In this document: positions 7,163 through 31,377 of the stretch, piece by piece
How positions within the stretch are numbered: position 1 is the stretch's first letter
How the letters are laid out: each line of letters opens with the position of its first letter
From: Gelidibacter japonicus
Lineage (GTDB): Bacteria; Bacteroidota; Bacteroidia; Flavobacteriales; Flavobacteriaceae
NCBI RefSeq assembly: GCF_010725055.1
Contig: NZ_BJKB01000002.1
Coordinates: forward strand, 463,405 to 495,404
Direction: 5' to 3'
Length of the DNA: 32,000 nt
Made by a program: the position numbers and the translations under genes
Notes under the pieces: model-generated
The model's database searches: none
What the model saw: the letters and a program-made list of their open reading frames with translations, nothing else
What the model was told of the DNA's origin: nothing

Positions 7163-7224
7163 GTTTGAACAAAGGATAGGGCTTAAAAGTATAAAAAATA
7201 ATCAACACCGAAGTAAATAACCCA

Positions 7225-7266: not shown

Positions 7267-7268
7267 AA

Positions 7269-8606
7269 CTAGTTCAAAGACAAACTACCCGCAAGTTGCT
7301 TCAAGGTGATTTCAGACAATTTAGCCTGGTAAATAGCGTTGCTTAAACGCAAGGAGGCTTGTATATAATTGAGTTGTGCTGTTCTGAATTCTATAGTTGG
7401 GATCGTTCCTATTTTATATTTCGCTAAAGTGATATCAAGATTTTCTTTCGCAATATTTTCATTCTTGGTCTCGAGTTCAATCAAGCTCAGATTGGTTTGA
7501 TAGGTTTGGAATGCGGTATGTAATTGTGATTTTATAGTCTGTGTCAGCTGGGCTATGGCAATTGTTGAATTTTCAATTTGAAGCTTAGCTATTTTTTCAT
7601 TTCTATTTTGATTGGAGCCGTTAAAAATATCTATACTGGCAGAAAATCCGTAATTCCATCCATGCGCATTATTTTTTGTAGTGAAACCCAAACTTGATTC
7701 TGAATCGCTGAAATTATAACCCGTATTGGCTGAAATTTTAGGGTAACGATTCCCCTTAACCTGCTTTAGTTCCAATTCAGAAATCCGTTTACTGATCAAT
7801 TGTGCCTGCAATTCCGGATTTTGAGTCGTTGCCAAATCCTCAAGTTCAGACAGCTGCAAATCACTCGCTATCAACACCTCATCCCTAACCTTAAATTTGG
7901 TTTCTGGGTCTCGACCCATAATTTCATTAAGTCTGATTTTTGTATTGGCATACACTTCAAGTTCTCTAATGTGAAGCGTCTTATCCGTATTGAGATCTAC
8001 TTGTGCATTCAGCACTTCCAACTTGGAAGCCTTGCCAATATTGAACCGGTTCTCAGCAAGTTCTACCCGTTGCTGGGAAATTACCAGAGTACTGTCTAAA
8101 GCGGTCAATTGCTGCTGGTGCTGGACCAAATCGTAATAAGTGATCATCACATCGCTCACCCGATTCAATAAGGCACTTTGCAACTCTGCTTTTCCCAATT
8201 TTTCAAGTTCTTTCAATCGGTCATAACGTGCGAACATGCCAAAACCATCAAAAATCGTCCAATCCAGTCCAACGCCATAATTGAGACTGTTGTTTTTTGC
8301 GTTATCCAATTCGATTATGTCACCGTTGGAACGGGTTTGCGATATATTTTGAGTGCTGTTATTGGTGTTGGCCTGGGCAAAAACCCGCGGGAGCATGCCA
8401 GCAAATCCAGGACTGACACCAAGAGAATCTGTTTTCAAATTGTTTCTTGCCAAACGAATATCGTAATTATTTTCCAAGGCAATTTCCACCGCTTTTTCAA
8501 GTGTCAATAGATCTTGCGAATGCGTATTCAATGAAAACAATCCCAAACACATACTCAGATATAGCGGCCAGAGCTTATACGGTTCCATAAGTATCAATTT
8601 TATCAA
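7269..8606 (-). CDS. TolC-family outer-membrane efflux channel
   Basis: 445-aa ORF; an alternative start at Met7 (8588) gives the signal peptide MEPYKLWPLYLSMCLGLFSLNTHSQ. The two-repeat coiled-coil/beta pattern is typical of the OEP family (LTLEKAVEIALENNYDIRLA...). It overlaps the 3' end of the RND pump gene by 14-32 nt, which implies co-translation. Confidence 0.85.
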   Translation of the reverse strand: MIKLILMEPYKLWPLYLSMCLGLFSLNTHSQDLLTLEKAVEIALENNYDIRLARNNLKTDSLGVSPGFAGMLPRVFAQANTNNSTQNISQTRSNGDIIELDNAKNNSLNYGVGLDWTIFDGFGMFARYDRLKELEKLGKAELQSALLNRVSDVMITYYDLVQHQQQLTALDSTLVISQQRVELAENRFNIGKASKLEVLNAQVDLNTDKTLHIRELEVYANTKIRLNEIMGRDPETKFKVRDEVLIASDLQLSELEDLATTQNPELQAQLISKRISELELKQVKGNRYPKISANTGYNFSDSESSLGFTTKNNAHGWNYGFSASIDIFNGSNQNRNEKIAKLQIENSTIAIAQLTQTIKSQLHTAFQTYQTNLSLIELETKNENIAKENLDITLAKYKIGTIPTIEFRTAQLNYIQASLRLSNAIYQAKLSEITLKQLAGSLSLN

Positions 8607-14929: not shown

Positions 14930-15649
14930 TTAAAATATCATAATCGCTCCCGAAACACACAAGAGCAGCATCAATGATCTTTTAAATAATTTTTCATCAA
15001 TCTTCGAAAACGTCCGTTTCCCTAAAAACTGAGCAAGTAGAAATATGGGAAAGACAAATAATGCCATTTTTAAGTGATTGACATTTAATATCCTACTTAC
15101 TGCTAAAGCTGGGACACGAGTGATGGTAACCAGTCCTAAAACTCCTATCATTGTGGCTCGAAACACTTTTATACTATGAGCGGTGTTTTCAACGCAAATC
15201 ACATACAAAGGTCCACCAGTTGAGAATACACCTGAAAAAAAACCACCCATAACTCCAAATCCAATAACTCCATTCTTATTAAGTTTTATTTTCGTTTTTC
15301 CAAAAGAGACATAGGCTACATACAGTAAGATAAAGACTCCCAACCCTCTTTTTAAAATGATGGGTTTTGCATAGCTAAGCACTACAATCCCTAAAATGAC
15401 GCCTATCACCGAGGTCAATGCCAACTGGAGAATGATTTTCCTATCAATATTCCGCCATTCCTTCATGATTAGAAAAACACTCGAAAACAGATAAAAAATG
15501 GAAATAAAAGCGATTGCATCAGGGAGTTGCATTTTAAAAAGCAAAATAGGAAGCGCCATCAAAGACCCAGCAAACCCGACAACAGTCTGCACATAAAAAC
15601 CCACGAATATTCCAATTGCGAGAATAAAAAAAACTTCTAAGGACATCAT
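14930..15649 (-). CDS. TauE/SafE-family (DUF81) anion-export-type membrane permease
   Basis: 239 aa, polytopic (about 7-8 TM), with glycine-rich repeat segments (VGFAGSLMALPIL; GGFFSGVFSTGGPL) characteristic of TauE/SafE. Confidence 0.75.
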   Translation of the reverse strand: MMSLEVFFILAIGIFVGFYVQTVVGFAGSLMALPILLFKMQLPDAIAFISIFYLFSSVFLIMKEWRNIDRKIILQLALTSVIGVILGIVVLSYAKPIILKRGLGVFILLYVAYVSFGKTKIKLNKNGVIGFGVMGGFFSGVFSTGGPLYVICVENTAHSIKVFRATMIGVLGLVTITRVPALAVSRILNVNHLKMALFVFPIFLLAQFLGKRTFSKIDEKLFKRSLMLLLCVSGAIMIF

Positions 15650-15772
15650 AAAATCATCTTATTAAACAGTATAAAATTACGAGATACGCAATCAATATGT
15701 AAATAGATTAAGTGGCAATCTCCACATAATTCCAAATAAAACGTGTATTTTTATCTTAAAACAATCGAATCG

Positions 15773-16201
15773 ATGGTCAGTGATATAGATAGAGAAATAA
15801 TCGGTTTATTAAAAATAAATGCTCGAGCCTCTTTTGCAGAAATAGGAAGAAAAATAGCGCTTTCTCCCTCCGCGGTTCGAGAACGCGTTCAGAAATTAGA
15901 AGATCTGGGAGTTATAAAATCTTATGGTGTTAAATTAAATCAAGCTCTTTTAGGAAATGGGCTGGAAGTATTTATTCTACTGAAAATCTTTGACGGAAAG
16001 TTGAAATATATTTTATCGGAAATCAATACCTTCCCCGAAGTCCAGGAAGTATACAGAATAACTGGGCCTTATAATATCCACGTTCGGGTTGTGCTCCGCG
16101 ATCAACTACACCTACAACAATTTATAGATAAACTCATTCAATATGGCAGCCCCACTACTCTTCTCATTCTATCAGAAATTGAAAATAGAAAGGGTAGCTG
16201 A
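15773..16201 (+). CDS. Lrp/AsnC-family transcriptional regulator
   Basis: The ORF track starts at an upstream GTG (15743); the likely start is ATG 15773 (MVSDIDREIIGLLKINARASFAEIGRKIALSPSAVRERVQKLEDLGVIKSY). It has an N-terminal HTH_AsnC-type domain and a C-terminal RAM/AsnC_trans_reg ligand domain (EVYRITGPYNIHVRV). Divergent from the TauE-like gene. Confidence 0.9.
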   Translation: MVSDIDREIIGLLKINARASFAEIGRKIALSPSAVRERVQKLEDLGVIKSYGVKLNQALLGNGLEVFILLKIFDGKLKYILSEINTFPEVQEVYRITGPYNIHVRVVLRDQLHLQQFIDKLIQYGSPTTLLILSEIENRKGS

Positions 16202-16242: not shown

Positions 16243-19452
<3,210 letters not shown>

Positions 19453-19505
19453 TCATTCCGCTGTGCGATTATGCTGTTAGTATGCACGTTCCGTTTCGAA
19501 TAATT

Positions 19506-22500
19506 CTAAAATTGCATGATATCTTCCGCTAATATTTTTCTCAAATAAAAGAGCAATTCTTCGGCGTTATCTTTAGTAAAAATAATTGGGGGTTTAATCT
19601 TCAATACGTTATGATCTGGACCATCAGTACTCATTAAAATACCGTGATCTTTCATTCTATCTGCTAAATAATCGGTTTGGGCTGCCAATGGATTCATATC
19701 CGCATCCACCAATTCAATTCCAAGAAATAAACCTTGTCCACGCACATCACCAATAATTGGAAACTCGTGAGCCAATTTACGGAGTTCATCTTTTAAAAAT
19801 GTTCCGACTTTTAAGGCGTTTTCCTGTAATTTCTCCCGCTTTACAGTGCGTATCACCTCAGCACCAATAGCACAGGACACTGGATTCCCACCAAAAGTAT
19901 TGAAGTATTCCATGCCATTCGCAAACTTATCTGCAACCTCACGTGTACAAGCCACTGCAGCAAGGGGATGTCCATTACCTAAAGGCTTGCCAATAGTGAC
20001 AATATCTGGAACCACATCATGTAATTGAAAGCCCCAAAATGTTTTCCCCGTCCTGCCGCAACCCGTTTGGACTTCGTCAGAAATACAAAGGCCGCCAGCT
20101 GCTCTCACTTTTTCATAGGCTTTGGCTAAAAACCCTTCTGGCAACTCAACTTGTCCGCCGCAGCTGATAATAGGTTCTATAATGAATGCACCTACGCCAC
20201 GGCTTTTTTTATGGACAACATCGATTTGTTTTTGGACTTCTTCTGCATATTTCTCTGCGCTGTCCTCGCCTCTATATTTTCCTCTAAACGCATCTGGCAA
20301 AGGGAAAATATGGGTATGTTCTGGAGCACCACTTCCTCCTTTTCCATCAAATTTATAAGAACTAATGTCGATGCACATATTACTATTGCCATGATAGCCC
20401 ACTTCACTGGCTATTATATCCCGTTCGCCAGTGGCCGCTTTGACCATTCTAATGGCCAGTTCATTGGCTTCACTGCCCGAATTGACAAAATGTAAAACAC
20501 TTAATTCTGGTGGCAAGGTTTCAATAAGTTCTTCGGCCAGGGCATTGATATTGTCGTGCAAATAGCGCGAATTGGTATTGATCAGAGCCATTTGTTCTTG
20601 ACCTGCCTTTACCACGTCATAATTTTCATGACCAACATGCGCCACGTTATTGACGGTGTCCAAATATTTACGTCCGTACTGGTCCATTAAATATTGACCC
20701 GCACCGCGAACCATTTTGATGGGCTCTTTATATTGAAGACTTAAGCTTTTGCCTAAATGTTGCTTTCTATAGTTGATTAATTCGGCATTGGAAGTGCCAT
20801 CAATTTTTTGAAGCGCTTCGGTTTTAAATAACACATTCGGATTTGGACAGATATTCTTCCACACGTTTATTTGATTATAATACGCAACGCCGGGGAAATC
20901 ATTCTTATAATCTAAAAGTGACAACATGAGCTGAAAATGAAGATGAGGCACCCAATTGCCGTTTTCTTGTGAAGCTCCTAATGCTCCGATTTTTTCATCT
21001 TTCTTTATAGTGTCCCCAACTTTATTTTTAGTAGCGCTTTCAACCGATAAATGCCCATATAGGGTGTAGAATTCAAAGTCGTCGGCTTGGTGTTTTAGAA
21101 TAACCAATCCACCATATTCCTTATCACCAGCGTCATTGACAGCAATAACCACTTCGCCATCAAATAGCGCATGAACTGGAGTGCCGCTTGGCAACCAAAA
21201 ATCAACCCCTAAGTGGATGGTTCTACTTTCCTTTCCGGAATTTCCTATTTTATCATAAGCATCCGACGTATATAAAGCACGAGGTTCTAAATAGCCACCG
21301 GCGATAATTTTGTTAGAATTTTTCTTTTGAAGCCGGTCAATTTTAAACTGAAAGAGGTCCAGATCGTTAAATTCCTCTTGGTGACCGATCCATTTGCTCG
21401 ACACACTCAAATCGACGTGATGTACGTCGTTCTTGTCAATGGTTGGAAACAGGTGGTTTAGTTCAAAACTTTGTTTTTCAGCCCAATCCTTAAACGCCTT
21501 TGTCTTAGGATGTGCTTCGTAACCACAGGTATTTCTAAAACTGAAATGCGCAAAATCCGGACTTATATTGCGCCATTTCTCAAGCACTTTCCAAGCTGGT
21601 TTTTCACTGATCAACAAGTAGGTGTTATCAGGTTCTGCAATTTTATTGATGGCCGATTTAGTCACTGAAATCACCAATCGCATGGCAATAGCATTGTATA
21701 AATGCGCTAATTCGTCCTCTTGCAATTCAAACGTCGAATGATAGCCTTGAACAATCGGCAAAGCCGCTTCCAACGGGTCGTTATGATCCATTATAGCATA
21801 CGCGCAAGCAACGGCAACATCATTTATAATCTGGGTATGAACAGCGTCGCCATAATCTATGACCGCTTCAACTTTAGGTTCAAGTAAATCGGAGGAGACA
21901 ATGATATTATTATCGTTGGCATCATTGTGAACGACTGCTTTTCTTAATTTCGAATAGGTATCTTGAGAGACTTCAAACAGATTTTGAAAATATTCAACGA
22001 TGGCTTTTTCTTCATCTCTAAACAGGTCAACATGGTCTTTTGTCCAAAGCGATTGTGCCACATCCCAATCAAATCCGCGATGTGCTTCTGCATGGTCAAA
22101 CCCTTGCAGCGATAGGGTCAACAATCCGCATTGTTTACCTAAACTAAAGCGCAAATCATCCAATTGCGGATTGATGCCACTCCAAACGCGGCCAGAAACC
22201 CAACTTAATAACCGCACATGGCGTTCCTTTCCAAAATCATCGGTGATTTTAGAAATAGCATTTCCATTCGTATCACTTATAACTTTGGGCGCCATTAGAT
22301 TTCGCCCATGATCTGCAACAAACTGCAATAGTTGTTGTTGAAAATCAAGATAGTTCTCATTTTCGTTCGGCCGGGATATTTTTAGAATGTAACCAGGCCC
22401 ATTATCAACCTTAATTCTAAAGTTAAAATCCAATTCGCCAGGAAGTGCTGTTGCCTTTCCTTTAATCTGGAATAGCTTGAAGAGAATGTCTTCAGCCTGC

Positions 22501-22532
22501 TGATTTGATATTTTTAAGTTGTCGTAGTTCAT
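19506..22532 (-). CDS. Three-domain fusion: APH-fold hydroxylysine-kinase-like domain, M23 metallopeptidase domain, and class-III aminotransferase-fold AGXT2L-type phospho-lyase-like domain
   Basis: 1008 aa, no signal peptide. Residues 1-330 carry the kinase motifs YILKISR, VVHNDANDNN (catalytic loop, nt 21906-21929) and VIDYGDA. Residues about 410-540 carry the M23 motifs HLGVD (H440/D444, nt 21201-21215), LYGHL and HLH (H530/H532, nt 20937-20945). Residues about 585-1008 carry NNVAHVGH, NTNSRYLHDN, NSGSEAN, CGGQ, DEVQTGCGRTGKTFWGFQ, VPDIVTIGKPLGNGHP (PLP lysine K849, nt 19986-19988), MEYFNTFGGNPVSCA and NVLKIKPP. As I recall them, these closely track the human AGXT2L1/AGXT2L2 phospho-lyases. 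Confidence 0.85.
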   Translation of the reverse strand: MNYDNLKISNQQAEDILFKLFQIKGKATALPGELDFNFRIKVDNGPGYILKISRPNENENYLDFQQQLLQFVADHGRNLMAPKVISDTNGNAISKITDDFGKERHVRLLSWVSGRVWSGINPQLDDLRFSLGKQCGLLTLSLQGFDHAEAHRGFDWDVAQSLWTKDHVDLFRDEEKAIVEYFQNLFEVSQDTYSKLRKAVVHNDANDNNIIVSSDLLEPKVEAVIDYGDAVHTQIINDVAVACAYAIMDHNDPLEAALPIVQGYHSTFELQEDELAHLYNAIAMRLVISVTKSAINKIAEPDNTYLLISEKPAWKVLEKWRNISPDFAHFSFRNTCGYEAHPKTKAFKDWAEKQSFELNHLFPTIDKNDVHHVDLSVSSKWIGHQEEFNDLDLFQFKIDRLQKKNSNKIIAGGYLEPRALYTSDAYDKIGNSGKESRTIHLGVDFWLPSGTPVHALFDGEVVIAVNDAGDKEYGGLVILKHQADDFEFYTLYGHLSVESATKNKVGDTIKKDEKIGALGASQENGNWVPHLHFQLMLSLLDYKNDFPGVAYYNQINVWKNICPNPNVLFKTEALQKIDGTSNAELINYRKQHLGKSLSLQYKEPIKMVRGAGQYLMDQYGRKYLDTVNNVAHVGHENYDVVKAGQEQMALINTNSRYLHDNINALAEELIETLPPELSVLHFVNSGSEANELAIRMVKAATGERDIIASEVGYHGNSNMCIDISSYKFDGKGGSGAPEHTHIFPLPDAFRGKYRGEDSAEKYAEEVQKQIDVVHKKSRGVGAFIIEPIISCGGQVELPEGFLAKAYEKVRAAGGLCISDEVQTGCGRTGKTFWGFQLHDVVPDIVTIGKPLGNGHPLAAVACTREVADKFANGMEYFNTFGGNPVSCAIGAEVIRTVKREKLQENALKVGTFLKDELRKLAHEFPIIGDVRGQGLFLGIELVDADMNPLAAQTDYLADRMKDHGILMSTDGPDHNVLKIKPPIIFTKDNAEELLFYLRKILAEDIMQF

Positions 22533-24563
22533 TTAGTCGTTTTGTAATAGCATGATAAGATGTGCTGCACTCCAACTGAAATTTTGGGCGTTTAAACCTT
22601 CTCCAGTGATGGGATGGTAATTCTCACGAATGGCTTTTCCTTTTCCTAAAACGCCATTGGCACCTTCAATAATTCGGATGGTCGCTTGATCTGCCTCTGT
22701 ATTAAATCCGTAATTGCGTAATCCCTGAACACCAAAATAAGCCTGATCCAGCCAGTTCGGGCCTCTCCAATAACCTTTTAGTGGATTGAATTTCTCATGA
22801 TCCGCACTCATGGTTTGAAAAGGGACTTTCGTATAGAACTTTTCAGGGTCCATCATTTTAAATTTTACAGCATTAGCTTGCTCTTGTGTTGTGGCATTTG
22901 CCCAAAGTGCGGTCCAGCCTTCACTTCCTTCACCTTTAATAAAAGTTTTACCGTCAAGAGTTGTATCATAAAACCAACCGTCCTCTGGGTCATAGAATTG
23001 TTCTTGGATTTTATCTTTCAATAGTGCTGCTTCGTCTTTATAGGTTTTTGCATCCTCTAATTTATTGATTATCTCTGCCAATTCACTTAAATAAAGTTTT
23101 TCAGCATACAAATAAGCGTTTAAATCGACACTTTCCTGATCTAAAGAATACGCACCTTCTCCGTTTTTAAGAATTTTGGAATCGTCAAAACGAATGGCAT
23201 TATCCATTCCACTTTCCCATTTTGCGGCTACTACGGTTCCATCGGTAGAACCATATTCACATAATCCATCTTGATCGTGGTCGCGTTTAGCGTACCACCA
23301 CTCGTGGTAATTTTTGATTTTCGGATACAACTCTTTTACAAATTCGGCATCCTTATCCTTTTCATAAATTTTAGCAACCGCCCATGCCGATAGTGGTGGT
23401 TTGGTGTCGCGGTAGTTATGCGCTTCAATTGTGGTATCTCGAAAGATACAATCGACTATAAATCCATCATCACTTTGAAAATCGAACATGGCCCGCATTT
23501 GATTTTTTGCCAAGTCGATGTCATAATAGGCTAATCCCACAGCATGTTTCCACGAATCCCAGGCCCAAAACCCGTGGAAGCCTATATAATGATAACTTGG
23601 AAATAAGCCTTCGTTGGTCAATTCCCCAGCAGGGATTCGCCAGTTATTTTGTAAGGTCAACTGTGACTTGGCCAGAACCCCAGCATATTTATCATCTTTA
23701 AATTCTGGTTTCCTATTTTCAATAATGGCTTTTAACTGATTGTTCTTTTCGCTTTTTCGAACTTCAAAAACCGAATCAAAATTCACGTTAGCTATGCTTT
23801 GTTTCTCTTCTTCCCAGGAATATTCAGGAAAAATAAAAGTTTGTGCCACCACAATTTCTTTGGTTTCGTTGGGTTTTAGAGTCAGAACCTCTTTTGCTTT
23901 ATAGTTTAAGCTATCAACCAACTCAACCTGCGTATTTTTAGGGAAAGTGAGGTAGCCTATAGCATCGGTTTCTGTGGAATTAATAGTGATGGTGTGATCA
24001 TTTTGCGATAATGAAATCCCTTCAATCAAAATTGGCGCATTTCCCCAAAGCACTTCCACATCGATCGTTTCATTACCAGTATTCTTGATTTTGGTCTGCA
24101 ATAAAGCGGTGTGGCCGTTTTTAAAAAGCAAGGTTTCGCTAACGGCTATTTTATCGCATGCATAATTCATTTCCAAGTGACTTGAATAACTACGTGAAGA
24201 TTCGGTCTTTAAGGATTCAGGATTGTTATCCACCCTAATCTTAGTATTTGCAAAAGAATTGCTTAACCAAACCCCGTTTTGCTGTGTCATTAAAAAAGGT
24301 CCTGTAAAGCCAATCACATCAGTTGTATCTTCAGGCATCCCATAGGCAAACCAAGCGCCCTGATCAGAAAACATAAGACCTGATCTGTCTTTAGCATCTT
24401 TCGGCGTGATATGATAATCCAAAATGTTTTCACTGAAATCCAGAAAATTATTTGCTTTCTCAGTTTTCTGTGATTCTTTTGAAGTATTGCAACTCAAATT
24501 AAATAACAATCCGAGTGTAATTACATATTTGGCCATTGTTTTCAGATACATCTTTTTAACCAT
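22533..24563 (-). CDS. GH63-family YgjK-like glycoside hydrolase (predicted alpha-glucosidase), lipoprotein
   Basis: 676 aa with signal and lipobox (ITLGLLFNLSCNTS; alternative starts at Met5 and Met10). An N-terminal beta-sandwich is followed by an (alpha/alpha)6 catalytic domain with YgjK/trehalase-clan motifs: GFHGFWAWDSWKHA, KPPLSAWAV, RDHDQDGLCEYG, WESGMDN (putative catalytic Asp), YWRGPNWLDQ, IRENYHPITGE (putative catalytic Glu) and NFSWSAAHLIMLL. Its stop abuts the ATG of the fusion gene (TAAATG). Confidence 0.8.
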   Translation of the reverse strand: MVKKMYLKTMAKYVITLGLLFNLSCNTSKESQKTEKANNFLDFSENILDYHITPKDAKDRSGLMFSDQGAWFAYGMPEDTTDVIGFTGPFLMTQQNGVWLSNSFANTKIRVDNNPESLKTESSRSYSSHLEMNYACDKIAVSETLLFKNGHTALLQTKIKNTGNETIDVEVLWGNAPILIEGISLSQNDHTITINSTETDAIGYLTFPKNTQVELVDSLNYKAKEVLTLKPNETKEIVVAQTFIFPEYSWEEEKQSIANVNFDSVFEVRKSEKNNQLKAIIENRKPEFKDDKYAGVLAKSQLTLQNNWRIPAGELTNEGLFPSYHYIGFHGFWAWDSWKHAVGLAYYDIDLAKNQMRAMFDFQSDDGFIVDCIFRDTTIEAHNYRDTKPPLSAWAVAKIYEKDKDAEFVKELYPKIKNYHEWWYAKRDHDQDGLCEYGSTDGTVVAAKWESGMDNAIRFDDSKILKNGEGAYSLDQESVDLNAYLYAEKLYLSELAEIINKLEDAKTYKDEAALLKDKIQEQFYDPEDGWFYDTTLDGKTFIKGEGSEGWTALWANATTQEQANAVKFKMMDPEKFYTKVPFQTMSADHEKFNPLKGYWRGPNWLDQAYFGVQGLRNYGFNTEADQATIRIIEGANGVLGKGKAIRENYHPITGEGLNAQNFSWSAAHLIMLLQND

Positions 24564-24634
24564 TTCAAAGTTTTAAATCCATTTATATTATGACATAGCA
24601 AATTTCGTTTTTTTATTGACAATAACACAAAACT

Positions 24635-24655
24635 CACCTTTACTTGACCTTACAA
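24635..24655 (-). promoter_or_regulatory. Candidate operator, site A: TTGTAAGGTCAAGTAAAGGTG (read on the minus strand)
   Basis: Lies 71 nt upstream of the first GH63 ATG and 107 nt upstream of the divergent regulator gene. It differs by a single-base indel from the element at 26600-26621 and contains the direct half-sites GTAAGGT and GTAAAGGT spaced 10 bp start to start. Confidence 0.55.
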
Positions 24656-24761
24656 ATGCCTCTTTCATTAAAAATATTAAATTAATATTGTCGATATTTG
24701 ATAACACGCAAATCATTCTAAAAAGTATAAGTACAGCTCTGTTACTAAGAAATTCCAATTC

Positions 24762-26456
24762 ATGAAAAAGTTGACGCATTTTATTCTTTTCACCTTTATA
24801 TGCATTTGTTTTACAACACAGGCACAAACGAATATATGGGATGAAAACCCAGCTGATTCGCAAGTTGAATTGGACAGTTTGTTGACCATTTTACCTACAG
24901 TGAATCGGGTAAAAAAAACACCCTTGTTAAATAGGATTGCAGAGATCTATTGGTCAATCAACCCTGACAAAACCATAGAATATGCTTCAGAAGCCTTACA
25001 ACTATCAAAGGAATTCAATCAAAAAGAGCAAGAAGGCTTGGCCCTTATCAATCTTTGCCAAGGCTATTTATTTAATGATATTTATGATAAGGCCTTACAA
25101 TATGGTTTACAATCTCTAGAAATCCGGAAAGAGATTGGAAATGACTACGATTTGGCTTTTACCTTACGCACGCTTGGATGGCTCTATTATGACATTGGAT
25201 ATTTTGACAAAGCCTTGGAATATCATACGGAAGTACTCAAAATACACGAAAAAATAGGTTCAAAACAACGGATTGCCTACAGTTACAATAGTATAGGACT
25301 GATTTATGAGGGGAAAGGCGATTGCAATTTAGCATTATCCTTTTTTAAGCGATCCTTAAAACTCATCGAAGAGCTTGACAATAAGGACAGAATTGCCGAA
25401 GCCATGACCAATATGGGCATCTGTTATCGTAAAATCGATGACCTTGGTTTAGCCATAAGATACTTAGAATCGGCGCTGGAGATTACCAATGAAATCAAAT
25501 TCGATCACAAAAAAGTCTATATCCTGCATGAGCTGTCCATTGTCTATTTGAAACAGGAGGATTTTAAAAAAGCCCACGCTTTATTGGAAGAATCGAGAAT
25601 GATTATTCAAACGATCAAGAATAACAAAGAATTAATTTTAGAGAATAATAAAATCACCTCCGATTATTATGTCGCAACAAATAATTATAAGGAGGCCTAC
25701 AGTTACTACAAGAAATACATAGAAGAATCCTCTGAAATATTCTCAAGCACTGAAAGTGAAAGACTCGCCGAAATGAGAGTTTTGTACGAGGCCGAACGAC
25801 GTGAAAACGAAATTAAACTCTTAGAACAAGAACGACACTTAGAAGCACAAAAAAGAAATTTTCTACTCATTGGTGCGCTATTATTGGTCATTATTGCAGT
25901 CCTGATTATTGGAAGCCTCTGGAATAATATAAAAAAGAAGAAGGCCATCTACTTGCAGAGCCACAAACTCTCAAAAGAGAAGTTAAAAACACAATCTTTA
26001 GAACGCGAGAATCTTGAACACAAGTTAGAGTTTCGCCAAAAAGAACTCACAAACCTAGCCTTGTTTATCTCGCAACGTACTTCCATATATAAGGACTTCA
26101 CCAAGTCTTTAAAAGATTTAAAATTCACCGATTTAAAAGAGCTCAAAAAAAACATTGATAATCTTATAAAAGAATATACGTTTAAGTTTGATTTTAATGA
26201 AGACATTCAACGCTTCCATGCCAATATAGAAAATCTGCAAAGCGACTTTCTATTTAAAATCAAAGAAGAATTCCCGCATTTAACGGATAAAGATGTTCAG
26301 CTTGCTGTTCAGGTCAAACTCAAACTTAGCTCCAAGGAAATTGCCAATATAAATAATATCTCTTTAAATTCGGTGGAAATTGGCAGGCATCGATTAAGAA
26401 AAAAGCTCGGCTTGGAGTCAAAAGACAATCTTGTAACTTTTTTAGAAAACATTTAA
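24762..26456 (+). CDS. One-component transmembrane regulator: periplasmic TPR sensor, single TM helix, cytoplasmic coiled coil, LuxR/GerE-type HTH
   Basis: 564 aa. It has a signal peptide (MKKLTHFILFTFICICFTTQAQ), multiple TPR-like repeats (residues about 60-330, e.g. YDKALQYGLQSLEI, FDKALEYHTEVLKI, NLALSFFKRSLKL), a TM helix FLLIGALLLVIIAVLIIGSLW (nt 25860-25922) and a C-terminal HTH LTDKDVQLAVQVKLKLSSKEIANINNISLNSVEIGRHRLRKKLGL (nt about 26280-26417). Confidence 0.8.
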   Translation: MKKLTHFILFTFICICFTTQAQTNIWDENPADSQVELDSLLTILPTVNRVKKTPLLNRIAEIYWSINPDKTIEYASEALQLSKEFNQKEQEGLALINLCQGYLFNDIYDKALQYGLQSLEIRKEIGNDYDLAFTLRTLGWLYYDIGYFDKALEYHTEVLKIHEKIGSKQRIAYSYNSIGLIYEGKGDCNLALSFFKRSLKLIEELDNKDRIAEAMTNMGICYRKIDDLGLAIRYLESALEITNEIKFDHKKVYILHELSIVYLKQEDFKKAHALLEESRMIIQTIKNNKELILENNKITSDYYVATNNYKEAYSYYKKYIEESSEIFSSTESERLAEMRVLYEAERRENEIKLLEQERHLEAQKRNFLLIGALLLVIIAVLIIGSLWNNIKKKKAIYLQSHKLSKEKLKTQSLERENLEHKLEFRQKELTNLALFISQRTSIYKDFTKSLKDLKFTDLKELKKNIDNLIKEYTFKFDFNEDIQRFHANIENLQSDFLFKIKEEFPHLTDKDVQLAVQVKLKLSSKEIANINNISLNSVEIGRHRLRKKLGLESKDNLVTFLENI

Positions 26457-26599
26457 GGTATAAGGTTATTTCTGACAACCTTTTGCCCACATCTCATCCA
26501 ACAAAACACACTGATCAGCAAATTACTCCCACATAATCAGATACTTAAATAATTAAATTCAGATTTCAAAAGCCTCAATAAAATTAAAATTTATATAGG

Positions 26600-26621
26600 T
26601 TGTAAAGGTCAAGTAAAGGTG
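26600..26621 (+). promoter_or_regulatory. Candidate operator, site B: TTGTAAAGGTCAAGTAAAGGTG
   Basis: Lies 95 nt upstream of the SusC ATG at 26717. It contains a perfect direct repeat GTAAAGGT at 26602-26609 and 26613-26620 (11-bp phasing) and matches site A apart from one extra A. Confidence 0.55.
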
Positions 26622-26716
26622 GTTTCTAATGTTTTGTCTCAAAATAATTTCATATTTGGTATTCTTAAACTTAAGTTAAATCGAAGTTTCAGCTAACTAA
26701 TAAAGAAATTACTAAC

Positions 26717-29700
26717 ATGAAAAAAAAACAATCAAAAAATCAAATTCACTCTTATAAAAGTCTGTTTTTATTACTTTTTGTATTTGTGTCTTTTGGATTT
26801 ATGACCAACACGCATGCTCAAGGCATCTTGGTGAAAGGAACAATTACAGATAATTCTGGAATACCCGTTCCAGGAGCAACGGTTATGGTAAAAAGCGATC
26901 CATCTGTTGGGACACAGTCTGACTTTGACGGAAATTATTCTCTTGAAGTACCAAACAACCAAACCATATTGGTTTTTAGTTACTTGGGTTTTGCAACTAA
27001 AGAAATTATGGTAGGCTCCCAAACAACCATTAACGTGTCATTACAAGAAAGTGCTGAAGATTTGGATGAAATCGTTATTGTTGGATATGGTACCCAAAAG
27101 AAAAGTGATGTCACTGGAGCCATAAGCTCTGTCAAAAGTGAAGACCTCACAAAAGTGGTGACCACAAATCCTGTAGACGCACTCCAAGGTAGGGTTTCTG
27201 GTGTTACGGTAACCTCTTCTTCTGGAAGTCCTGGTTCTACATCAGATATCACCATTAGAGGCATTGGAAGTTTTGGGAACAATCAACCGCTTTATATTGT
27301 TGACGGTGTACAAGCTGACCCGTATTTTTTAAATGCCAATGATATTGAGTCCATTGAAGTTTTAAAAGACGCGGCTTCTGGTGCTATTTACGGAACACGA
27401 GCAGCTAATGGCGTCATTATCATTACCACAAAAAAGGGTAAAGCTGGCAAAACAAAGATCGAGATAGAAAGTTCTTTAAGCTCCAATACAGCTAGAGAGG
27501 CCATGAAGTTACTTGATGCCGATGGATACGTTTCCGTACATAGACAAATGTATGAGAATGCAGGTGCTAGTCTACCGCAATATGTTCAAAACCCACCCAA
27601 TGTGAATACCAATTGGATTGATGAAACCCACAGAACCGGTCAATTAAACCTATTGAATGTTCGCGTAAGTGGTGCCTCTGACAATATCAATTATAGCGTA
27701 GCTGGAAGTTACGCTGATGAAAAGGGGATTTTAATCGGTTCTGGATTTACCAAAAAAGGCATCAATGCCAACCTTTCATCCACGAAAGGGAAATTAAAAA
27801 TTAACACGAGTTTAAATTACAGTGAAACAAATCAAGAGGATTATAAATTCTCACTTAGGGAAACCTATTTCATATCACCCTTGATTCCTGTTTTAGATCC
27901 GTCTAAACCATCAGGTTATGGCTATAGAAGTGGCGATCTACCTGACCATCGAAATCCAGTTGGTGAAGCTGCTATTATTGATGGCTACACCAAGATGAAG
28001 TATTTCTTAGGAAATGTAGGTTTTACATATGAAATTATTGAAGGGCTTAATGCCAACGCAAACTTTTCCTTAGCCAACAGAGATAATTACACTTATGCTT
28101 TCCATCCGCCATTTCAGGTAAGGGATATTGATGACAATCCACAGAATGAATACGCCTTTGTTTCTGAGTACAACAGTGAATTCAGAAGGTTAAATCAAGA
28201 GTACACGCTCAATTACCAGTTTGATCTAGGTAAGCACTCGGTTAATTTATTGGCGGGATATCAACGAATCTCTGAACCATTTAAGGAAACCTACGTCCAA
28301 GCCGAAGGTTATAAGTTTGATGAGAATGGCGATAAAATCCCAGCTACAATATTAGATCCAAGTTTCAACACTATGAATGCCTTTGGCGACGGCACTTATT
28401 CGGCCGAAGGAACAAACGCAGAATATGCATTGGTATCTCAATTTGGAAGGGTTAATTACGCCTACAATGATCGCTACTTATTTCAAGCGAGTGTCCGAAG
28501 GGATGGTAGCTCAAAATTTGGGAAGAACAATCAATATGGTGTTTTCCCTTCTGTGGCCGCCGGGTGGAAGATAACAGATGAAGATTTTATGAAGAATCAA
28601 AATATCTTCAACTTCCTAAAATTACGCTTCAGCTGGGGGCAAGCAGGTAATGATAGTGCTTTGGGATATTACGATTATATCGCCCTTATCTCTCAAGGAA
28701 AAGACCGAAGTAATGGAGGTTATGTATTTGGAAATCCACAAACCTCATATTTAGGAAGTATCGCGCGCGATTTGCAGAATGATGACCTACAATGGGAAAC
28801 CAACACCTCATCAAACTTCGGAATCGACTTTGCCTCCTTGGGCAATAAGTTAAAAGGGGCCATCAACTATTATAGCACAACTACTCAAGATTTACTCATT
28901 ACAAAAGAGGTTTCCCCATCAAGCGGGGTCAACAATCCGATTGTAAACGTTGGAGAATTTGAAAATAAAGGATTGGAATTAGAGCTGGGCTATGTCAATA
29001 AAGATGGTGAATTTGGTTACTCAGCTTTTGGAACCTTTACCACCATTAACAGCGAAGTAACAAAACTCAGTAACGCCAATCAAAAATTATATGGGATTGG
29101 TTTATTGTTTGGATCGGATCATTTTGTGAACCAAACCCAAGTAGGTTATGAGCCTGGAGCCTATTTTTTACCTGTAGCCGATGGGATCTTCCAATCACAG
29201 GCCGAAATTGATGCTCACGGTGCGCAACCAAATGCCTCTCCTGGAGACATCAGGTTTGTAGATCAAAATGGTGATGGTGTAATAGATTCAAAAGACGAAA
29301 CCTATCAAGGCACGGCAATTCCTAAATACGAATACAGTTTGAGTCTTTCAGCCGATTACAAAAAATTTGACTTCAATATATTCTTCCAAGGTGTTGGAGG
29401 CAACAAAATATACAATGGCAACGATTTTAGATTGTTAAGCTTGGATACGGGAAGGAATTTTAGAGCTGAAGCGGAGAATGCATGGACGCCTTCCAACACC
29501 AACACCAACATTCCAAGAGCGGTATTGGGCGACCCTAACAGAAACAGTAGGGCCTCAACGAGATTTTTAGAAAAAGGCGATTATTTAAGAATCAAGACCA
29601 TTCAGATTGGGTATTCATTACCGACCAATATTCTGGAAACTTTAGAGTTGGATAAATTGAGAGTTTACCTTACCGGACAGGACTTATTTACATTCACCAA

Positions 29701-29812
29701 ATATAGTGGCCTAGACCCTGAAGTTGGAGGAAGCGTATTGTCAAGAGGTATTGATATTAATTTATATCCGAAATATAAATCGATAATTTTTGGAGTACAA
29801 TTAGCATTTTAA
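26717..29812 (+). CDS. SusC-type TonB-dependent receptor (no STN domain)
   Basis: 1031 aa with a signal peptide, CarboxypepD_reg-like domain (VKGTITDNSGIPVPGATVMVKS), TonB box and plug (DEIVIVGYGTQKKSDVTGAISSV; IESIEVLKDAASGAIYGTRAANGVIIITTKKG) and a C-terminal barrel ending FGVQLAF. Confidence 0.93.
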   Translation: MKKKQSKNQIHSYKSLFLLLFVFVSFGFMTNTHAQGILVKGTITDNSGIPVPGATVMVKSDPSVGTQSDFDGNYSLEVPNNQTILVFSYLGFATKEIMVGSQTTINVSLQESAEDLDEIVIVGYGTQKKSDVTGAISSVKSEDLTKVVTTNPVDALQGRVSGVTVTSSSGSPGSTSDITIRGIGSFGNNQPLYIVDGVQADPYFLNANDIESIEVLKDAASGAIYGTRAANGVIIITTKKGKAGKTKIEIESSLSSNTAREAMKLLDADGYVSVHRQMYENAGASLPQYVQNPPNVNTNWIDETHRTGQLNLLNVRVSGASDNINYSVAGSYADEKGILIGSGFTKKGINANLSSTKGKLKINTSLNYSETNQEDYKFSLRETYFISPLIPVLDPSKPSGYGYRSGDLPDHRNPVGEAAIIDGYTKMKYFLGNVGFTYEIIEGLNANANFSLANRDNYTYAFHPPFQVRDIDDNPQNEYAFVSEYNSEFRRLNQEYTLNYQFDLGKHSVNLLAGYQRISEPFKETYVQAEGYKFDENGDKIPATILDPSFNTMNAFGDGTYSAEGTNAEYALVSQFGRVNYAYNDRYLFQASVRRDGSSKFGKNNQYGVFPSVAAGWKITDEDFMKNQNIFNFLKLRFSWGQAGNDSALGYYDYIALISQGKDRSNGGYVFGNPQTSYLGSIARDLQNDDLQWETNTSSNFGIDFASLGNKLKGAINYYSTTTQDLLITKEVSPSSGVNNPIVNVGEFENKGLELELGYVNKDGEFGYSAFGTFTTINSEVTKLSNANQKLYGIGLLFGSDHFVNQTQVGYEPGAYFLPVADGIFQSQAEIDAHGAQPNASPGDIRFVDQNGDGVIDSKDETYQGTAIPKYEYSLSLSADYKKFDFNIFFQGVGGNKIYNGNDFRLLSLDTGRNFRAEAENAWTPSNTNTNIPRAVLGDPNRNSRASTRFLEKGDYLRIKTIQIGYSLPTNILETLELDKLRVYLTGQDLFTFTKYSGLDPEVGGSVLSRGIDINLYPKYKSIIFGVQLAF

Positions 29813-29832
29813 AAATTACAAAACATAATAAA

Positions 29833-31377
29833 ATGAAAAACGTATATAAAATAGTTCTAGTTGCTTTAATAATAACAACTACAACATCATGTAATGACGA
29901 TGATTTCTTAGAACAAACATCCGTAGACCAATTAACCTCTGCCAGTTTTTGGAGAAATGCCGAAGATGCGCAGTCCGGTTTAGTAGCGGCCTATTCAGAA
30001 TTGGAATCGAGAAGCAATTTCTGGGATGGATGGCAGGAAGGACGTCCAGTGGTTGAATATTTCAGATCTGATTATGCCCTACCTGGACCGGATGCAAGCA
30101 ACTACGCACATTGGATGTCCATTTATAATTTCACTTACACCAATGGCCATACTTTTATAGATGTGATATGGACCACAAACTATAAAGGATTAAATTTTGC
30201 CAATCAAGTGATTACCAAAGTTGGAGAAATGACCTCTGACAAGATATCGGAGGCGGAGAAAAAGCAAATAATTGGAGAAGCTACTTTTTTAAGAGGCTAT
30301 TACCACTTTAAATTATTGACGCTTTATGAGCAAATTATCTTAAGGACTGAGTTAATCTCCAACGAAACCTTAGACAAGCCGCTATCCACTCGTCCAGAGG
30401 CATGGGAAGTGATTATCAACGACTTCAAACAAGCTGCTGAGATGTTACAAACAGTGGACAATACCGAGCCTGGAAGAGCCACAAAAGGAGCCGCCTTAGC
30501 CTATTTGGGTAAAGCCTATATGTATAAAGCTGGTGATCCTTCTTCATCTGAAGCCTCCGACTTTGAAAATGCAGCACTGGCGTTTAAGCCAATTGTTGAA
30601 GGCGCAGCAGGTTCCTATGCCTTAGAGTCCGATTTTTCAAGCTTGTTTAATGGCGAAAATGAAAATAATAAAGAATCCATCTTTGAACTGCAGTTTAAAA
30701 CCGCAGATGCCACGTCGAATAACTCAACAAGACTACATGCTTTTGTAGGCGATTGGTCGATAGGTGGCTGGGGTGGTATTGCTGCCACCATGGACATTGT
30801 TAACGAAATGAAAAGTGAAGGCATGATTGCCAGCAACGGCCTGTATGACAATAGACTTTACGGTTCGCTCTATTTTAGAGATCCGTTCTATAATGACCCT
30901 AACACCAACCAAATGCAGGGAAGTACATGGGACGAGCTAATGATGGAAACTTATGAAAACACAAATGATAATGCCGTTTATTTTAGAAAATGGTTACCTA
31001 ATTATGTTTGGAACAATAGCTATGTTGGTGTTAATGTGGTATTGATGCGATATGCTGATGTGTTACTGATGTATGCTGAGGCGTTGAACGAAACCGGTGC
31101 TACACCTCAGGCCATTGATTTTATAAATAACGTAAGGGCAGTACATGGCCATATGCCTCCAATAACAGTAACTTCTCAGGCTGATGTCAAAAAACAAATT
31201 ATCCATGAACGAACCATGGAATTGACCTTAGAATCTGTACGGTTTTTTGATTTACGACGATGGAATATGTTAGACCAAGCCATGCAGGCAGCCGGTAGAA
31301 GTAATTTTAGTGCGGCATCTCACGCTTATTTGCCAATACCATTATCAGAGATTAACTCCAACTCTGCCATTAATTAA
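29833..31377 (+). CDS. RagB/SusD-family nutrient-binding lipoprotein
   Basis: 514 aa. The lipobox is followed by an acidic stretch (TTTSCNDDDFLEQ) resembling the Bacteroidota surface-lipoprotein export signal. SusD-like helical core (VLLMYAEALNETG, RFFDLRRW). It starts 20 nt downstream of SusC. Confidence 0.92.
   Translation: MKNVYKIVLVALIITTTTSCNDDDFLEQTSVDQLTSASFWRNAEDAQSGLVAAYSELESRSNFWDGWQEGRPVVEYFRSDYALPGPDASNYAHWMSIYNFTYTNGHTFIDVIWTTNYKGLNFANQVITKVGEMTSDKISEAEKKQIIGEATFLRGYYHFKLLTLYEQIILRTELISNETLDKPLSTRPEAWEVIINDFKQAAEMLQTVDNTEPGRATKGAALAYLGKAYMYKAGDPSSSEASDFENAALAFKPIVEGAAGSYALESDFSSLFNGENENNKESIFELQFKTADATSNNSTRLHAFVGDWSIGGWGGIAATMDIVNEMKSEGMIASNGLYDNRLYGSLYFRDPFYNDPNTNQMQGSTWDELMMETYENTNDNAVYFRKWLPNYVWNNSYVGVNVVLMRYADVLLMYAEALNETGATPQAIDFINNVRAVHGHMPPITVTSQADVKKQIIHERTMELTLESVRFFDLRRWNMLDQAMQAAGRSNFSAASHAYLPIPLSEINSNSAIN

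What the first reader, a model, noticed from the sequence alone, without database searches (positions are those of the whole stretch)
24635..26621. Near-identical 21-22 bp direct-repeat element upstream of both divergent arms of the locus (candidate shared operator)
Site A (24635-24655, read on the minus strand) is TTGTAAGGTCAAGTAAAGGTG. Site B (26600-26621, plus strand) is TTGTAAAGGTCAAGTAAAGGTG. They share a 15-nt exact core (GGTCAAGTAAAGGTG) plus TTGTAA, differing by one A. Each points toward its downstream operon, 71 nt before the GH63 start codon and 95 nt before the SusC start codon. Each consists of two GTAA(A)GGT half-sites phased 10-11 bp apart, about one helical turn, as expected for a dimeric HTH protein binding direct repeats. 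A 15-mer match between two roughly 200-bp intergenic regions is very unlikely by chance, on the order of 1 in 10,000. I did not see the element elsewhere in the window. Site A also lies 107 nt upstream of the LuxR-type regulator gene, so autoregulation is possible. The element ties the SusC/SusD arm and the GH63/fusion/GH2 arm into one regulon.
Basis: seen in the sequence. Interest (0 to 1): 0.68.

Follow-up and report, generated by a model that had tools for sequence, protein, structure and literature searches.

The report
Shared operator of a flavobacterial sugar-uptake regulon
The two near-identical 21-22 bp elements are real and sit at a fixed distance upstream of both divergent promoters in at least 12 genera, so they are most likely the docking site of the neighbouring membrane-anchored regulator that switches on a small nutrient-uptake gene set.

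Summary
Site A (24635-24655, minus) and site B (26600-26621, plus) read exactly as reported. They are the only two copies in the 4.67 Mb Gelidibacter genome.

The element is best read as two AAGGT cores exactly 11 bp apart in both sites. The single-A difference lies 5' of the distal core.

In 59 distinct sites from about 35 species and at least 12 genera, the proximal core ends 29 nt (GH63 type) or 30 nt (SusC type) before a Bacteroidota -7 box (nAnnTTTG). The sequence in between drifts. This places the element at about -43 to -62, an activator position.

The number of sites tracks the number of operons. There is one where SusC-SusD-GH63 are fused (Flavobacterium, Algibacter), two in the divergent layout, and four to five in Wocania, where the regulator lies 27-47 kb away.

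In 401 Flavobacteriaceae genomes, the regulator ortholog occurs in 9. Those are exactly the 9 with strict sites.

The regulator has a signal peptide, a TPR sensor, one transmembrane helix and a GerE helix-turn-helix domain. Its cytoplasmic module is shared with BguR-type membrane one-component activators.

Binding and activation are inferred, not shown. Earlier notes on this same window had already proposed the glucosyl-galactosyl-hydroxylysine operon. This report adds its operator and regulon.

The parts
24635..24655 (-). Site A: TTGTAAGGTCAAGTAAAGGTG. Its two AAGGT cores lie at + strand 24647-24651 (distal) and 24636-24640 (proximal), and it points to the GH63 operon.
   Evidence: It is conserved in orthologous loci.
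26600..26621 (+). Site B: TTGTAAAGGTCAAGTAAAGGTG. Its cores lie at 26605-26609 and 26616-26620, and it points to SusC.
   Evidence: It is conserved in orthologous loci.
24599..24606 (-). Predicted -7 box of the GH63 promoter (GAAATTTG, 7/8 match to TAnnTTTG). It starts 29 nt after the proximal core. The predicted transcription start is near 24593.
   Evidence: It is the second conserved block in the footprint. The transcription start is not mapped.
26651..26658 (+). Predicted -7 box of the SusC promoter (CATATTTG). It starts 30 nt after the proximal core. The predicted transcription start is near 26664.
   Evidence: The transcription start is not mapped.
24693..24700 (+). Predicted -7 box of the regulator's own promoter (GATATTTG). 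It lies 41 nt beyond the distal core of site A, back to back with the GH63 promoter.
   Evidence: It is conserved as GATATTTG or TATATTTG at 39-45 nt (52 nt in Arenibacter) in other genera.
24762..26456 (+). Candidate binding protein of 564 aa. It has a signal peptide, a TPR array (residues 30-322), one transmembrane helix (about 366-388), a helical linker and a GerE/LuxR-type helix-turn-helix domain (509-563).
   Evidence: Pfam, NCBIfam, the AlphaFold2 model, Foldseek and homology to a BguR-like paralog.
16243..24563 (-). Target operon 1. It comprises a GH63 alpha-glucosidase (22533-24563), a kinase/M23/class-III aminotransferase-like fusion (19506-22532) and a GH2 beta-galactosidase (16243-19452).
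   Evidence: Synteny is shown.
26717..31377 (+). Target operon 2. It comprises SusC (26717-29812) and SusD (29833-31377).

Best explanation
**What the element is.** It is the operator of a small regulon: a tandem, head-to-tail pair of half-sites with consensus TGTAAAGGT-yaa-GTAAAGGTG and AAGGT cores 11 bp apart. It is centred near -52 (about -43 to -62) of the GH63 and SusC promoters. Both promoters have a good Bacteroidota -7 box but no well-placed -33 element.

**Proposed mechanism.**
- The neighbouring 564-aa protein spans the inner membrane once.
- Its periplasmic TPR superhelix senses the imported substrate or a breakdown product. This is probably a collagen-type glycopeptide or glycosyl-hydroxylysine.
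- Two cytoplasmic GerE-type helix-turn-helix domains then occupy the two half-sites on one face of the DNA.
- They recruit RNA polymerase, turning on SusC/SusD and GH63-fusion-GH2 together.

**Shown here.** The element exists and is unique in the genome. It is conserved in sequence, orientation and distance to the -7 box. It always precedes the same functional genes, and it co-occurs exactly with the regulator ortholog.

**Inferred.** That this protein binds the element, that binding activates, and what the signal is.
For: **Uniqueness.** There are only 2 copies in 4.67 Mb.

**Footprint.**
- In 10 other Gelidibacter species, both sites and the two -7 boxes are the conserved islands in otherwise drifting intergenic DNA.
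- In 59 distinct sites from at least 12 genera, the distance from core to -7 box is 29 or 30 nt in 54.

**Regulon logic.**
- Polaribacter, Arenibacter and Winogradskyella each have exactly the A and B pair genome-wide.
- Flavobacterium sp. W1B has one site before a single long operon that includes SusC, SusD, GH63 and the kinase/lyase.
- Algibacter has one site before SusC-SusD-GH63-GH2, with the regulator 17 kb away.
- Wocania has sites before SusC-SusD-M43 peptidase, before a sulfatase and before GH63-GH2, with the regulator 27-47 kb away.

**Co-occurrence.**
- Among 15 other genomes of the genus, exact sites occur in all 10 that have the regulator and in none of the 5 without it.
- In 401 family genomes, the 9 with the ortholog are the 9 with strict sites.

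**Regulator.**
- The DNA-reading helix (NISLNSVEIGRHRLRKKL) is nearly invariant among orthologs of 65-96% identity that keep the motif.
- A 42%-identical homolog with SIKSVEISRYRL has GTATAGGT-N3-GTATAGGT instead.
- The cytoplasmic part is 31% identical (E 1e-16) to that of a BguR-type paralog.
- BguR was shown genetically to be a PUL activator (preprint 10.64898/2026.01.10.698779).

**Other candidate.** The only other regulator in the window (AsnC type, 15743-16201) is not syntenic with the locus in any other genome.
Against: - There is no binding, expression or transcription-start data.
- Co-occurrence is partly trivial, because in most genomes the sites flank the regulator gene and the whole locus is gained or lost as a unit. 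Only Wocania and Algibacter uncouple them.
- The Pfam GerE match of the regulator itself is below the gathering score (20.4 against 23.5).
- Canonical LuxR/GerE proteins mostly bind inverted repeats, not direct repeats (from general knowledge).
- The covariation between reading helix and half-site rests on one distant homolog.
- The -7 boxes are predictions from a consensus.
Confidence: 0.72

Rival explanations
1. The element is bound by the same regulator but acts as a repressor operator. Repression could work by looping between sites A and B, about 1.97 kb apart, and would be relieved by the signal.
For: There are two sites flanking the regulator gene in most genomes. No expression data exclude repression.
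Against: - The element lies wholly upstream of the core promoter, at a strictly fixed 29-30 nt from the -7 box. That geometry is typical of activators.
- The promoters lack a properly spaced -33 element.
- Single-site genomes exist, so looping cannot be general.
- The related BguR is an activator.
Confidence: 0.1
2. The element is the site of a different DNA-binding protein encoded elsewhere, such as an Lrp/AsnC, LysR or other regulator, or a dedicated sigma factor. In this reading the TPR-GerE protein has another role.
For: An AsnC-type gene lies at 15743-16201. LysR genes sit next to the regulator in Wocania and Algibacter. Binding has not been tested.
Against: - The AsnC/TauE pair is absent from the 10 kb flanks of every other locus, including other Gelidibacter species.
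- No ECF sigma factor is linked to the locus.
- 29-30 nt from the -7 box is too far for a -35-type sigma element.
- The element is found in exactly the genomes that have the TPR-GerE ortholog.
- A tandem G-containing 8-mer is unlike AT-rich Lrp boxes (from general knowledge).
Confidence: 0.1
3. The element functions as RNA, for example a leader motif in transcripts that start further upstream, or it is a neutral relic of a duplicated promoter.
For: It always has the same orientation relative to the downstream gene. The transcription starts are unknown.
Against: - A conserved -7 box lies downstream at fixed spacing.
- There is no Rfam match.
- No conserved structure involves the element.
- Conservation across at least 12 genera with diverged flanks rules out a neutral relic.
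- In site A an upstream start would lie inside the divergent regulator promoter.
Confidence: 0.04

Closest known systems
BguR, the membrane-spanning one-component activator of laminarin PULs in Formosa agariphila (bioRxiv 10.64898/2026.01.10.698779)
   Same: - Signal peptide, periplasmic sensor, one transmembrane helix, helical linker and C-terminal GerE helix-turn-helix domain, with no phosphorelay domains.
- The gene sits next to SusC/SusD.
- A conserved motif lies between the regulator and the first PUL gene.
- The cytoplasmic module is homologous: 31% identity, E 1e-16, to a BguR-type paralog in this genome.
   Different: - The sensor is a TPR superhelix rather than tandem beta-propellers plus a Y_Y_Y domain.
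- The PUL is not a beta-glucan PUL.
- The element occurs on both sides of the regulator gene and drives two divergent operons.
- The BguR motif is shown only in a figure, so the sequences could not be compared.
MalT and MalT boxes of E. coli (from general knowledge)
   Same: MalT is a LuxR-type helix-turn-helix activator with a TPR-like sensor region (Pfam TPR_MalT hit). It binds asymmetric boxes arranged as direct repeats just upstream of the -35 region of promoters that depend on it.
   Different: MalT is a cytoplasmic STAND ATPase. The protein here has no ATPase domain and is membrane-anchored with its TPR outside the cytoplasm.
SusR, ToxR and CadC: membrane-tethered one-component transcription activators (from general knowledge; SusR is also discussed)
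   Same: A single polypeptide senses outside the cytoplasm and binds promoter DNA at the membrane. ToxR and CadC bind direct repeats upstream of the promoter.
   Different: The DNA-binding folds differ (winged helix in ToxR and CadC), and so do the sensors.
Hybrid two-component systems and ECF sigma/anti-sigma pairs, the usual PUL regulators
   Same: They are encoded next to SusC/SusD and are dedicated to one locus.
   Different: The protein has no kinase, receiver, AraC, sigma or anti-sigma domains.
FimS-type sensor kinases of Porphyromonas with periplasmic TPR sensors
   Same: The N-terminal TPR plus transmembrane part matches the NCBIfam FimS model over residues 57-395 (E 9e-25, far below the family cut-off).
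   Different: The output is a DNA-binding domain, not a histidine kinase.

Membership tests
BguR-type membrane-spanning one-component PUL regulator and its operator | Signal peptide, extracytoplasmic sensor, single transmembrane helix, no HisKA/HATPase/receiver domains, C-terminal GerE helix-turn-helix domain | tested here: met
   - Pfam and NCBIfam show only TPR and GerE-like regions.
- The AlphaFold2 model has a TPR array at 30-322, a long helix at 329-392 and a four-helix C-terminus at 509-563.
BguR-type membrane-spanning one-component PUL regulator and its operator | Cytoplasmic linker plus helix-turn-helix domain homologous to BguR-type proteins | tested here: met
   - Residues 413-563 are 31% identical, E 1e-16, to a 938-aa paralog whose GerE hit passes the Pfam cut-off.
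- Two other paralogs have Reg_prop, Y_Y_Y and GerE.
- Formosa BguR itself was not compared.
BguR-type membrane-spanning one-component PUL regulator and its operator | Tandem beta-propeller plus Y_Y_Y periplasmic sensor | tested here: not met
   The sensor is a TPR superhelix. Its best structural matches are LGN/Pins and kinesin light chain TPR domains.
BguR-type membrane-spanning one-component PUL regulator and its operator | Association with beta-glucan PULs | tested here: not met
   The targets are GH63, a kinase/lyase fusion, GH2 and SusC/SusD. In other genera they also include an M43 peptidase, sulfatases, piperideine-6-carboxylate dehydrogenase and a 270-aa gene with no NCBIfam match (DUF1338-like by my reading).
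BguR-type membrane-spanning one-component PUL regulator and its operator | Conserved motif in the intergenic region before the first PUL gene | tested here: met
BguR-type membrane-spanning one-component PUL regulator and its operator | Regulator required for induction (activator) | not testable with these tools
   This needs a deletion mutant and expression measurements.
[quoted passage not shown] | Sequence match to the family model | tested here: inconclusive
   - Pfam GerE E 4e-4, 20.4 bits against a cut-off of 23.5.
- NCBIfam TtrR and MctR C-termini E 1e-5 to 2e-4.
- PDB StyR E 0.15.
- Membership follows mainly from homology to paralogs that pass the cut-off.
[quoted passage not shown] | Typical dyad-symmetric (inverted-repeat) target site | tested here: not met
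   The element is a direct repeat with no dyad symmetry. Direct-repeat exceptions such as MalT are known (from general knowledge).
Bacteroidota housekeeping promoter (-33 TTTG, -7 TAnnTTTG) | -7 box TAnnTTTG | tested here: met
   GAAATTTG, CATATTTG and GATATTTG are 7/8 matches. All are conserved across genera at fixed positions. The consensus itself is taken from general knowledge.
Bacteroidota housekeeping promoter (-33 TTTG, -7 TAnnTTTG) | -33 TTTG about 19-21 nt upstream of the -7 box | tested here: inconclusive
   - Site A promoter: a TTTG lies 21 nt upstream in Gelidibacter, but it is not conserved elsewhere.
- Site B promoter: the TTTG lies 14 nt upstream, which is too close.
- Only a T-run follows the element.
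Dispersed repeat (REP, MITE or other mobile repeat) | Many copies at unrelated sites | tested here: not met
   There are 2 copies in this genome and 1-5 in other genomes, all before the same gene set.

The most novel reading that the evidence does not exclude
The transmembrane-linker-GerE output module shared by BguR-type and TPR-type membrane regulators may recognise DNA as a head-to-tail dimer on 11-bp-phased direct repeats at about -43 to -62. That geometry differs from the dyad-symmetric binding expected of LuxR/GerE proteins.

In the same reading, the TPR version is a periplasmic sensor of collagen-type glycopeptides. Its regulon (SusC/SusD, GH63, GH2, hydroxylysine kinase/lyase, and in some genera an M43 protease and the aminoadipate-semialdehyde branch) would define a bacterial pathway for glucosyl-galactosyl-hydroxylysine.

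Hints that the rule may be general are 11-bp tandem repeats next to several paralogs:
- TACGTCA twice before a BguR-like SusC
- ATAGACAA three times after another TPR paralog
- TGTAAACC/TGTAACCC after a 28% homolog.
Probability: 0.3. Interest if true: 0.75.

Novelty: new variant of a known kind. Interest (0 to 1): 0.58.

Why it matters
Regulation of polysaccharide utilization loci in marine Flavobacteriia is almost unexplored. The BguR preprint names a single validated marine PUL regulator before itself.

This work gives an exact, testable operator, its promoter geometry and a complete small regulon for a second sensor type (TPR) of the membrane-spanning one-component class. It also gives a cross-genus data set of about 60 sites for designing binding and reporter experiments.

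The regulon membership supports the earlier proposal that this locus degrades the glucose-galactose-hydroxylysine unit of collagen. In other genera the same element also precedes a secreted M43 protease and the enzyme for aminoadipate semialdehyde.

Tried and rejected
- **Sigma-70 promoter scan:** not above shuffles and not suited to Bacteroidota.
- **Rfam on the region:** nothing found.
- **First composite genome pattern:** a fixed 33-N spacer missed most known sites.
- **Degenerate pattern ARGKY...GTAAAGKT in 401 genomes:** it gave as many hits as its reversed control. Only hits with AAGGT and GTAAAGGT are meaningful.
- **Class-level sample of 400 genomes:** no further orthologs, so covariation could not be extended.
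- **Ekhidna homolog (48%, L048):** it has no recognisable element and its gene looks truncated.
- **PDB sequence search with the C-terminal 168 aa:** only a weak StyR hit.
- **Foldseek with the full model:** dominated by TPR proteins and says nothing on the helix-turn-helix domain.
- **AsnC-type regulator of the window as binder:** rejected for lack of synteny.
- **Literature:** no paper was found on TPR-LuxR regulators of PULs or on GH63 with hydroxylysine.
- **BguR-like paralog promoters in this genome:** they show repeats, but I could not fix their geometry without orthologous alignments.
Full report
**1. The observation**

Reading the window confirms both sequences at the stated coordinates. 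Site A at 24635-24655 on the minus strand is TTGTAAGGTCAAGTAAAGGTG. Site B at 26600-26621 on the plus strand is TTGTAAAGGTCAAGTAAAGGTG.

The stated distances also hold. There are 71 nt from site A to the GH63 start and 95 nt from site B to the SusC start. The distance from site A to the regulator start is 106 nt.

The 15-nt core has no third copy in the window at up to 3 mismatches. It has none in the whole 4.67 Mb assembly at up to 1 mismatch.

The longest exact string shared by the two intergenic regions is 17 nt. In 20,000 composition-preserving shuffles, a shared string of 17 nt or more arose twice and 15 nt or more arose 18 times. The match is not chance, and the element is not a dispersed repeat.

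**2. Gene context**

- GH2 beta-galactosidase, 16243-19452, minus strand.
- A 1008-aa fusion of a phosphotransferase, an M23 domain and a class-III aminotransferase-like domain, 19506-22532, minus strand.
- A GH63/MGH1-like alpha-glucosidase, 22533-24563, minus strand.
- The regulator, 24762-26456, plus strand.
- SusC, 26717-29812, and SusD, 29833-31377, plus strand.

Record titles of related loci place the window in Gelidibacter, family Flavobacteriaceae.

**3. Anatomy of the element**

I collected every site and anchored the alignment on AAGGT. Both sites then show two AAGGT cores exactly 11 bp apart. The extra A of site B lies 5' of the distal core.

The consensus over 59 distinct sites is tGTAAAGGT-(c/t)a(a/t)-GTAAAGGTg, followed by a T-run. 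The distal half-site is looser (TGTAAGGT, TGAAAGGT or AGTAAAGGT). In Flavobacterium the proximal core can be AAGTT or AAGTC.

The element has no dyad symmetry. It is a head-to-tail direct repeat.

**4. Phylogenetic footprint and promoter geometry**

Ten other Gelidibacter species, with regulators 78-96% identical, keep both sites. They also keep the one-base difference between A and B. The surrounding intergenic DNA drifts.

The only other conserved block in each region is a Bacteroidota-type -7 box. I take the consensus TAnnTTTG from general knowledge of Bacteroides and Flavobacterium promoters. The boxes are GAAATTTG at 24599-24606 on the minus strand and CATATTTG at 26651-26658 on the plus strand.

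Across at least 12 genera, the gap from the proximal core to the -7 box is 29 nt for the GH63 type and 30 nt for the SusC type. This holds in 54 of 59 sites, although the sequence in the gap varies. The genera are Gelidibacter, Flaviramulus, Jejuia, Gelatiniphilus, Arenibacter, Lutibacter, Winogradskyella, Polaribacter, Maribacter, Wocania, Algibacter and Flavobacterium. One MAG labelled Saprospiraceae also carries the sites.

If the -7 box spans about -12 to -5, the element covers about -43 to -62. Neither promoter has a conserved, properly spaced -33 TTTG. This is the layout of an activator-dependent promoter.

The regulator's own promoter box, GATATTTG at 24693-24700, lies back to back with the GH63 promoter. 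It sits 41 nt from the distal core. In other genera that distance varies from 39 to 52 nt. Autoregulation is therefore possible, but it is not indicated by the geometry.

**5. Regulon logic**

The number of sites follows the number of transcription units that carry the same functions.

| Genome | Sites | Genes downstream |
|---|---|---|
| Polaribacter ponticola, Arenibacter hampyeongensis, Winogradskyella bathintestinalis | 2 each genome-wide (the A and B pair) | Divergent GH63 and SusC arms |
| Flavobacterium sp. W1B | 1 | One operon: 270-aa gene with no NCBIfam match (DUF1338-like by my reading), L-piperideine-6-carboxylate dehydrogenase (NCBIfam above cut-off), SusC, SusD, GH63, a 711-aa protein and a shorter kinase/lyase |
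| Algibacter sp. PT7-4 | 1 | SusC-SusD-GH63-GH2; regulator 17 kb away |
| Wocania arenilitoris | 4-5 | SusC-SusD-M43 peptidase, a sulfatase gene, GH63-GH2, and a site on another contig; regulator (69% identical) 27-47 kb away next to a LysR gene |
| Gelidibacter G010 (second regulator copy, 78% identical) | Extra sites | A diverged site before an M43 peptidase and a further site before a second SusC |

**6. Which protein binds**

The regulator has several recognisable parts.
- A signal peptide.
- A TPR array. Pfam TPR_12 gives E 5e-31. NCBIfam shows similarity to the TPR sensor part of FimS kinases.
- One transmembrane helix.
- A helical linker.
- A weak GerE-type helix-turn-helix domain.

The AlphaFold2 model (mean pLDDT 78) shows the TPR superhelix at residues 30-322. 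It shows a 64-residue helix containing the membrane span and a four-helix C-terminus at 509-563. The best structural matches of the TPR part are peptide-binding TPR domains such as LGN/Pins and kinesin light chain.

The cytoplasmic 150 residues are 31% identical (E 1e-16) to those of a 938-aa paralog whose GerE hit passes the Pfam cut-off. Two further paralogs have Reg_prop, Y_Y_Y and GerE domains, and all three sit directly before SusC genes.

That architecture is the one described in 2026 as BguR. [quoted passage not shown] A motif was found between bguR and the first PUL gene (preprint 10.64898/2026.01.10.698779). The preprint mentions no TPR variant and links BguR only to beta-glucan PULs.

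Co-occurrence is exact.
- In the genus, exact sites occur in all 10 other genomes with the regulator and in none of the 5 without it.
- In an even sample of 401 Flavobacteriaceae genomes from 302 genera, the ortholog (E of 1e-100 or lower) occurs in 9.
- Those 9 are the genomes with strict sites (AAGGT-N3-GTAAAGGT with a TTTG at the right distance).
- One of the 392 other genomes has such a string, and the bases after it are G+C-rich rather than the usual T-run.

This test is not independent where the sites flank the gene. It is independent for Wocania and Algibacter.

The reading helix is almost invariant in all orthologs that keep the motif. A 42%-identical homolog with three changes in that helix has GTATAGGT-N3-GTATAGGT at the equivalent place. 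There the element lies 20 nt from a -7 box, about one helical turn closer. This is a single case and only suggestive.

The AsnC-type regulator at 15743-16201 is not found near the locus in any other genome, so it is not the binder.

**7. Most likely mechanism**

Two GerE domains of a membrane-anchored dimer occupy the two half-sites on one DNA face at about -46 and -57. They recruit RNA polymerase to promoters that lack a -33 element. The periplasmic TPR domain supplies the signal.

I put this at about 0.72. The rivals are a repressor role for the same protein (0.10), another binding protein or sigma factor (0.10), and an RNA element or relic (0.04).

From memory, and not tested, the half-site GTAAAGGT resembles the Bacillus GerE consensus RWWTRGGY. 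MalT is a precedent for a LuxR-type activator on direct repeats.

**8. What the regulon does**

Earlier notes on this same window proposed that GH63, the kinase/lyase fusion and GH2 degrade the Glc-Gal-hydroxylysine unit of collagen. My regulon reconstruction agrees and adds to it.

In other genera the same element controls a secreted M43 metallopeptidase. It also controls L-piperideine-6-carboxylate dehydrogenase, which takes the expected product of a phosphohydroxylysine lyase. In Flavobacterium it also controls a 270-aa gene that I read as DUF1338-like, although it has no NCBIfam match.

A peptide-binding type of TPR sensor would fit a glycopeptide signal. That last step is inference.

**9. 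Novelty and verdict**

The kind of regulator (a membrane-spanning one-component PUL regulator with a GerE output and an upstream motif) has been known since a 2026 preprint.

New here are the TPR-sensor variant, its exact operator, the fixed promoter geometry, the divergent two-promoter layout and the regulon. I found no paper on any of these. I class it as a new variant of a known kind, with interest 0.58.

Noticed in passing
window 26667-26689 (+); SusC leaders in L027, L030, L033, L034, L050, L052: Just after the predicted SusC transcription start, most genera have a stem-loop whose sequence differs but whose position is kept. It is followed by a conserved (G)ACTAACAAAT stretch.

In 7 of 10 genera the fold gives z -1.2 to -4.0. 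In this window it is weak (-2.2 kcal/mol, z +0.5). RNAalifold found no consensus because the stems do not align by sequence.
   Followed up: partly
L017:3996-10868, L018:822-2538 and 4011-9415, L019:3658 (Wocania arenilitoris); L015:7830-10981 (Gelidibacter G010): In other genomes the same element also precedes a type-IX-secreted M43 metallopeptidase and sulfatase genes. The regulon may therefore include the protease that releases the glycopeptide.
   Followed up: partly
L029:12161-19648; L073 (Flavobacterium sp. W1B): In Flavobacterium one site drives a single operon that begins with a 270-aa gene and L-piperideine-6-carboxylate dehydrogenase, ahead of SusC/SusD, GH63 and a shorter kinase/lyase. 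The 270-aa gene has no NCBIfam match and I read it as DUF1338-like. This is the expected downstream route from hydroxylysine to aminoadipate.
   Followed up: partly
G000 C3:50909-51131, C14:39970-40274, C3:45823-46017 (loci L075, L076): Other transmembrane-GerE regulators of this genome also have 11-bp-phased tandem repeats beside them. Examples are TACGTCA twice and ACCACnACA before SusC genes of BguR-like paralogs, and ATAGACAA three times after a 595-aa TPR paralog. Short repeats like these are partly expected by chance, and their promoter geometry was not resolved.
   Followed up: partly
L015:83-2400 and L020:5542-6204 (Gelidibacter G010): The second copy of the regulator locus in G010 is broken over two short contigs. 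It sits next to IS21-like transposase genes and a group II intron-type reverse transcriptase, which suggests a recent mobile duplication.
   Followed up: no
L030, L033, L034, L037, L039-L041, L043, L045, L052 (SusC/SusD after site B): In many genera the SusC/SusD pair after site B is only 29-40% identical to the one here. GH63, the fusion, GH2 and the regulator stay 57-82% identical. The transporter pair seems to have been replaced while the operator was kept.
   Followed up: no
L043 (MAG labelled Saprospiraceae) and L048 (Ekhidna MAG): A MAG labelled Saprospiraceae carries a 70%-identical regulator with both sites, which points to mis-binning or transfer. The 48%-identical Ekhidna copy looks truncated (400-aa open frame) and has no recognisable element.
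   Followed up: no
window 14930-16201: The AsnC-type regulator and TauE permease pair next to the GH2 gene is not found within 10 kb of the locus in any other genome, including other Gelidibacter species. It is probably not part of this system.
   Followed up: yes
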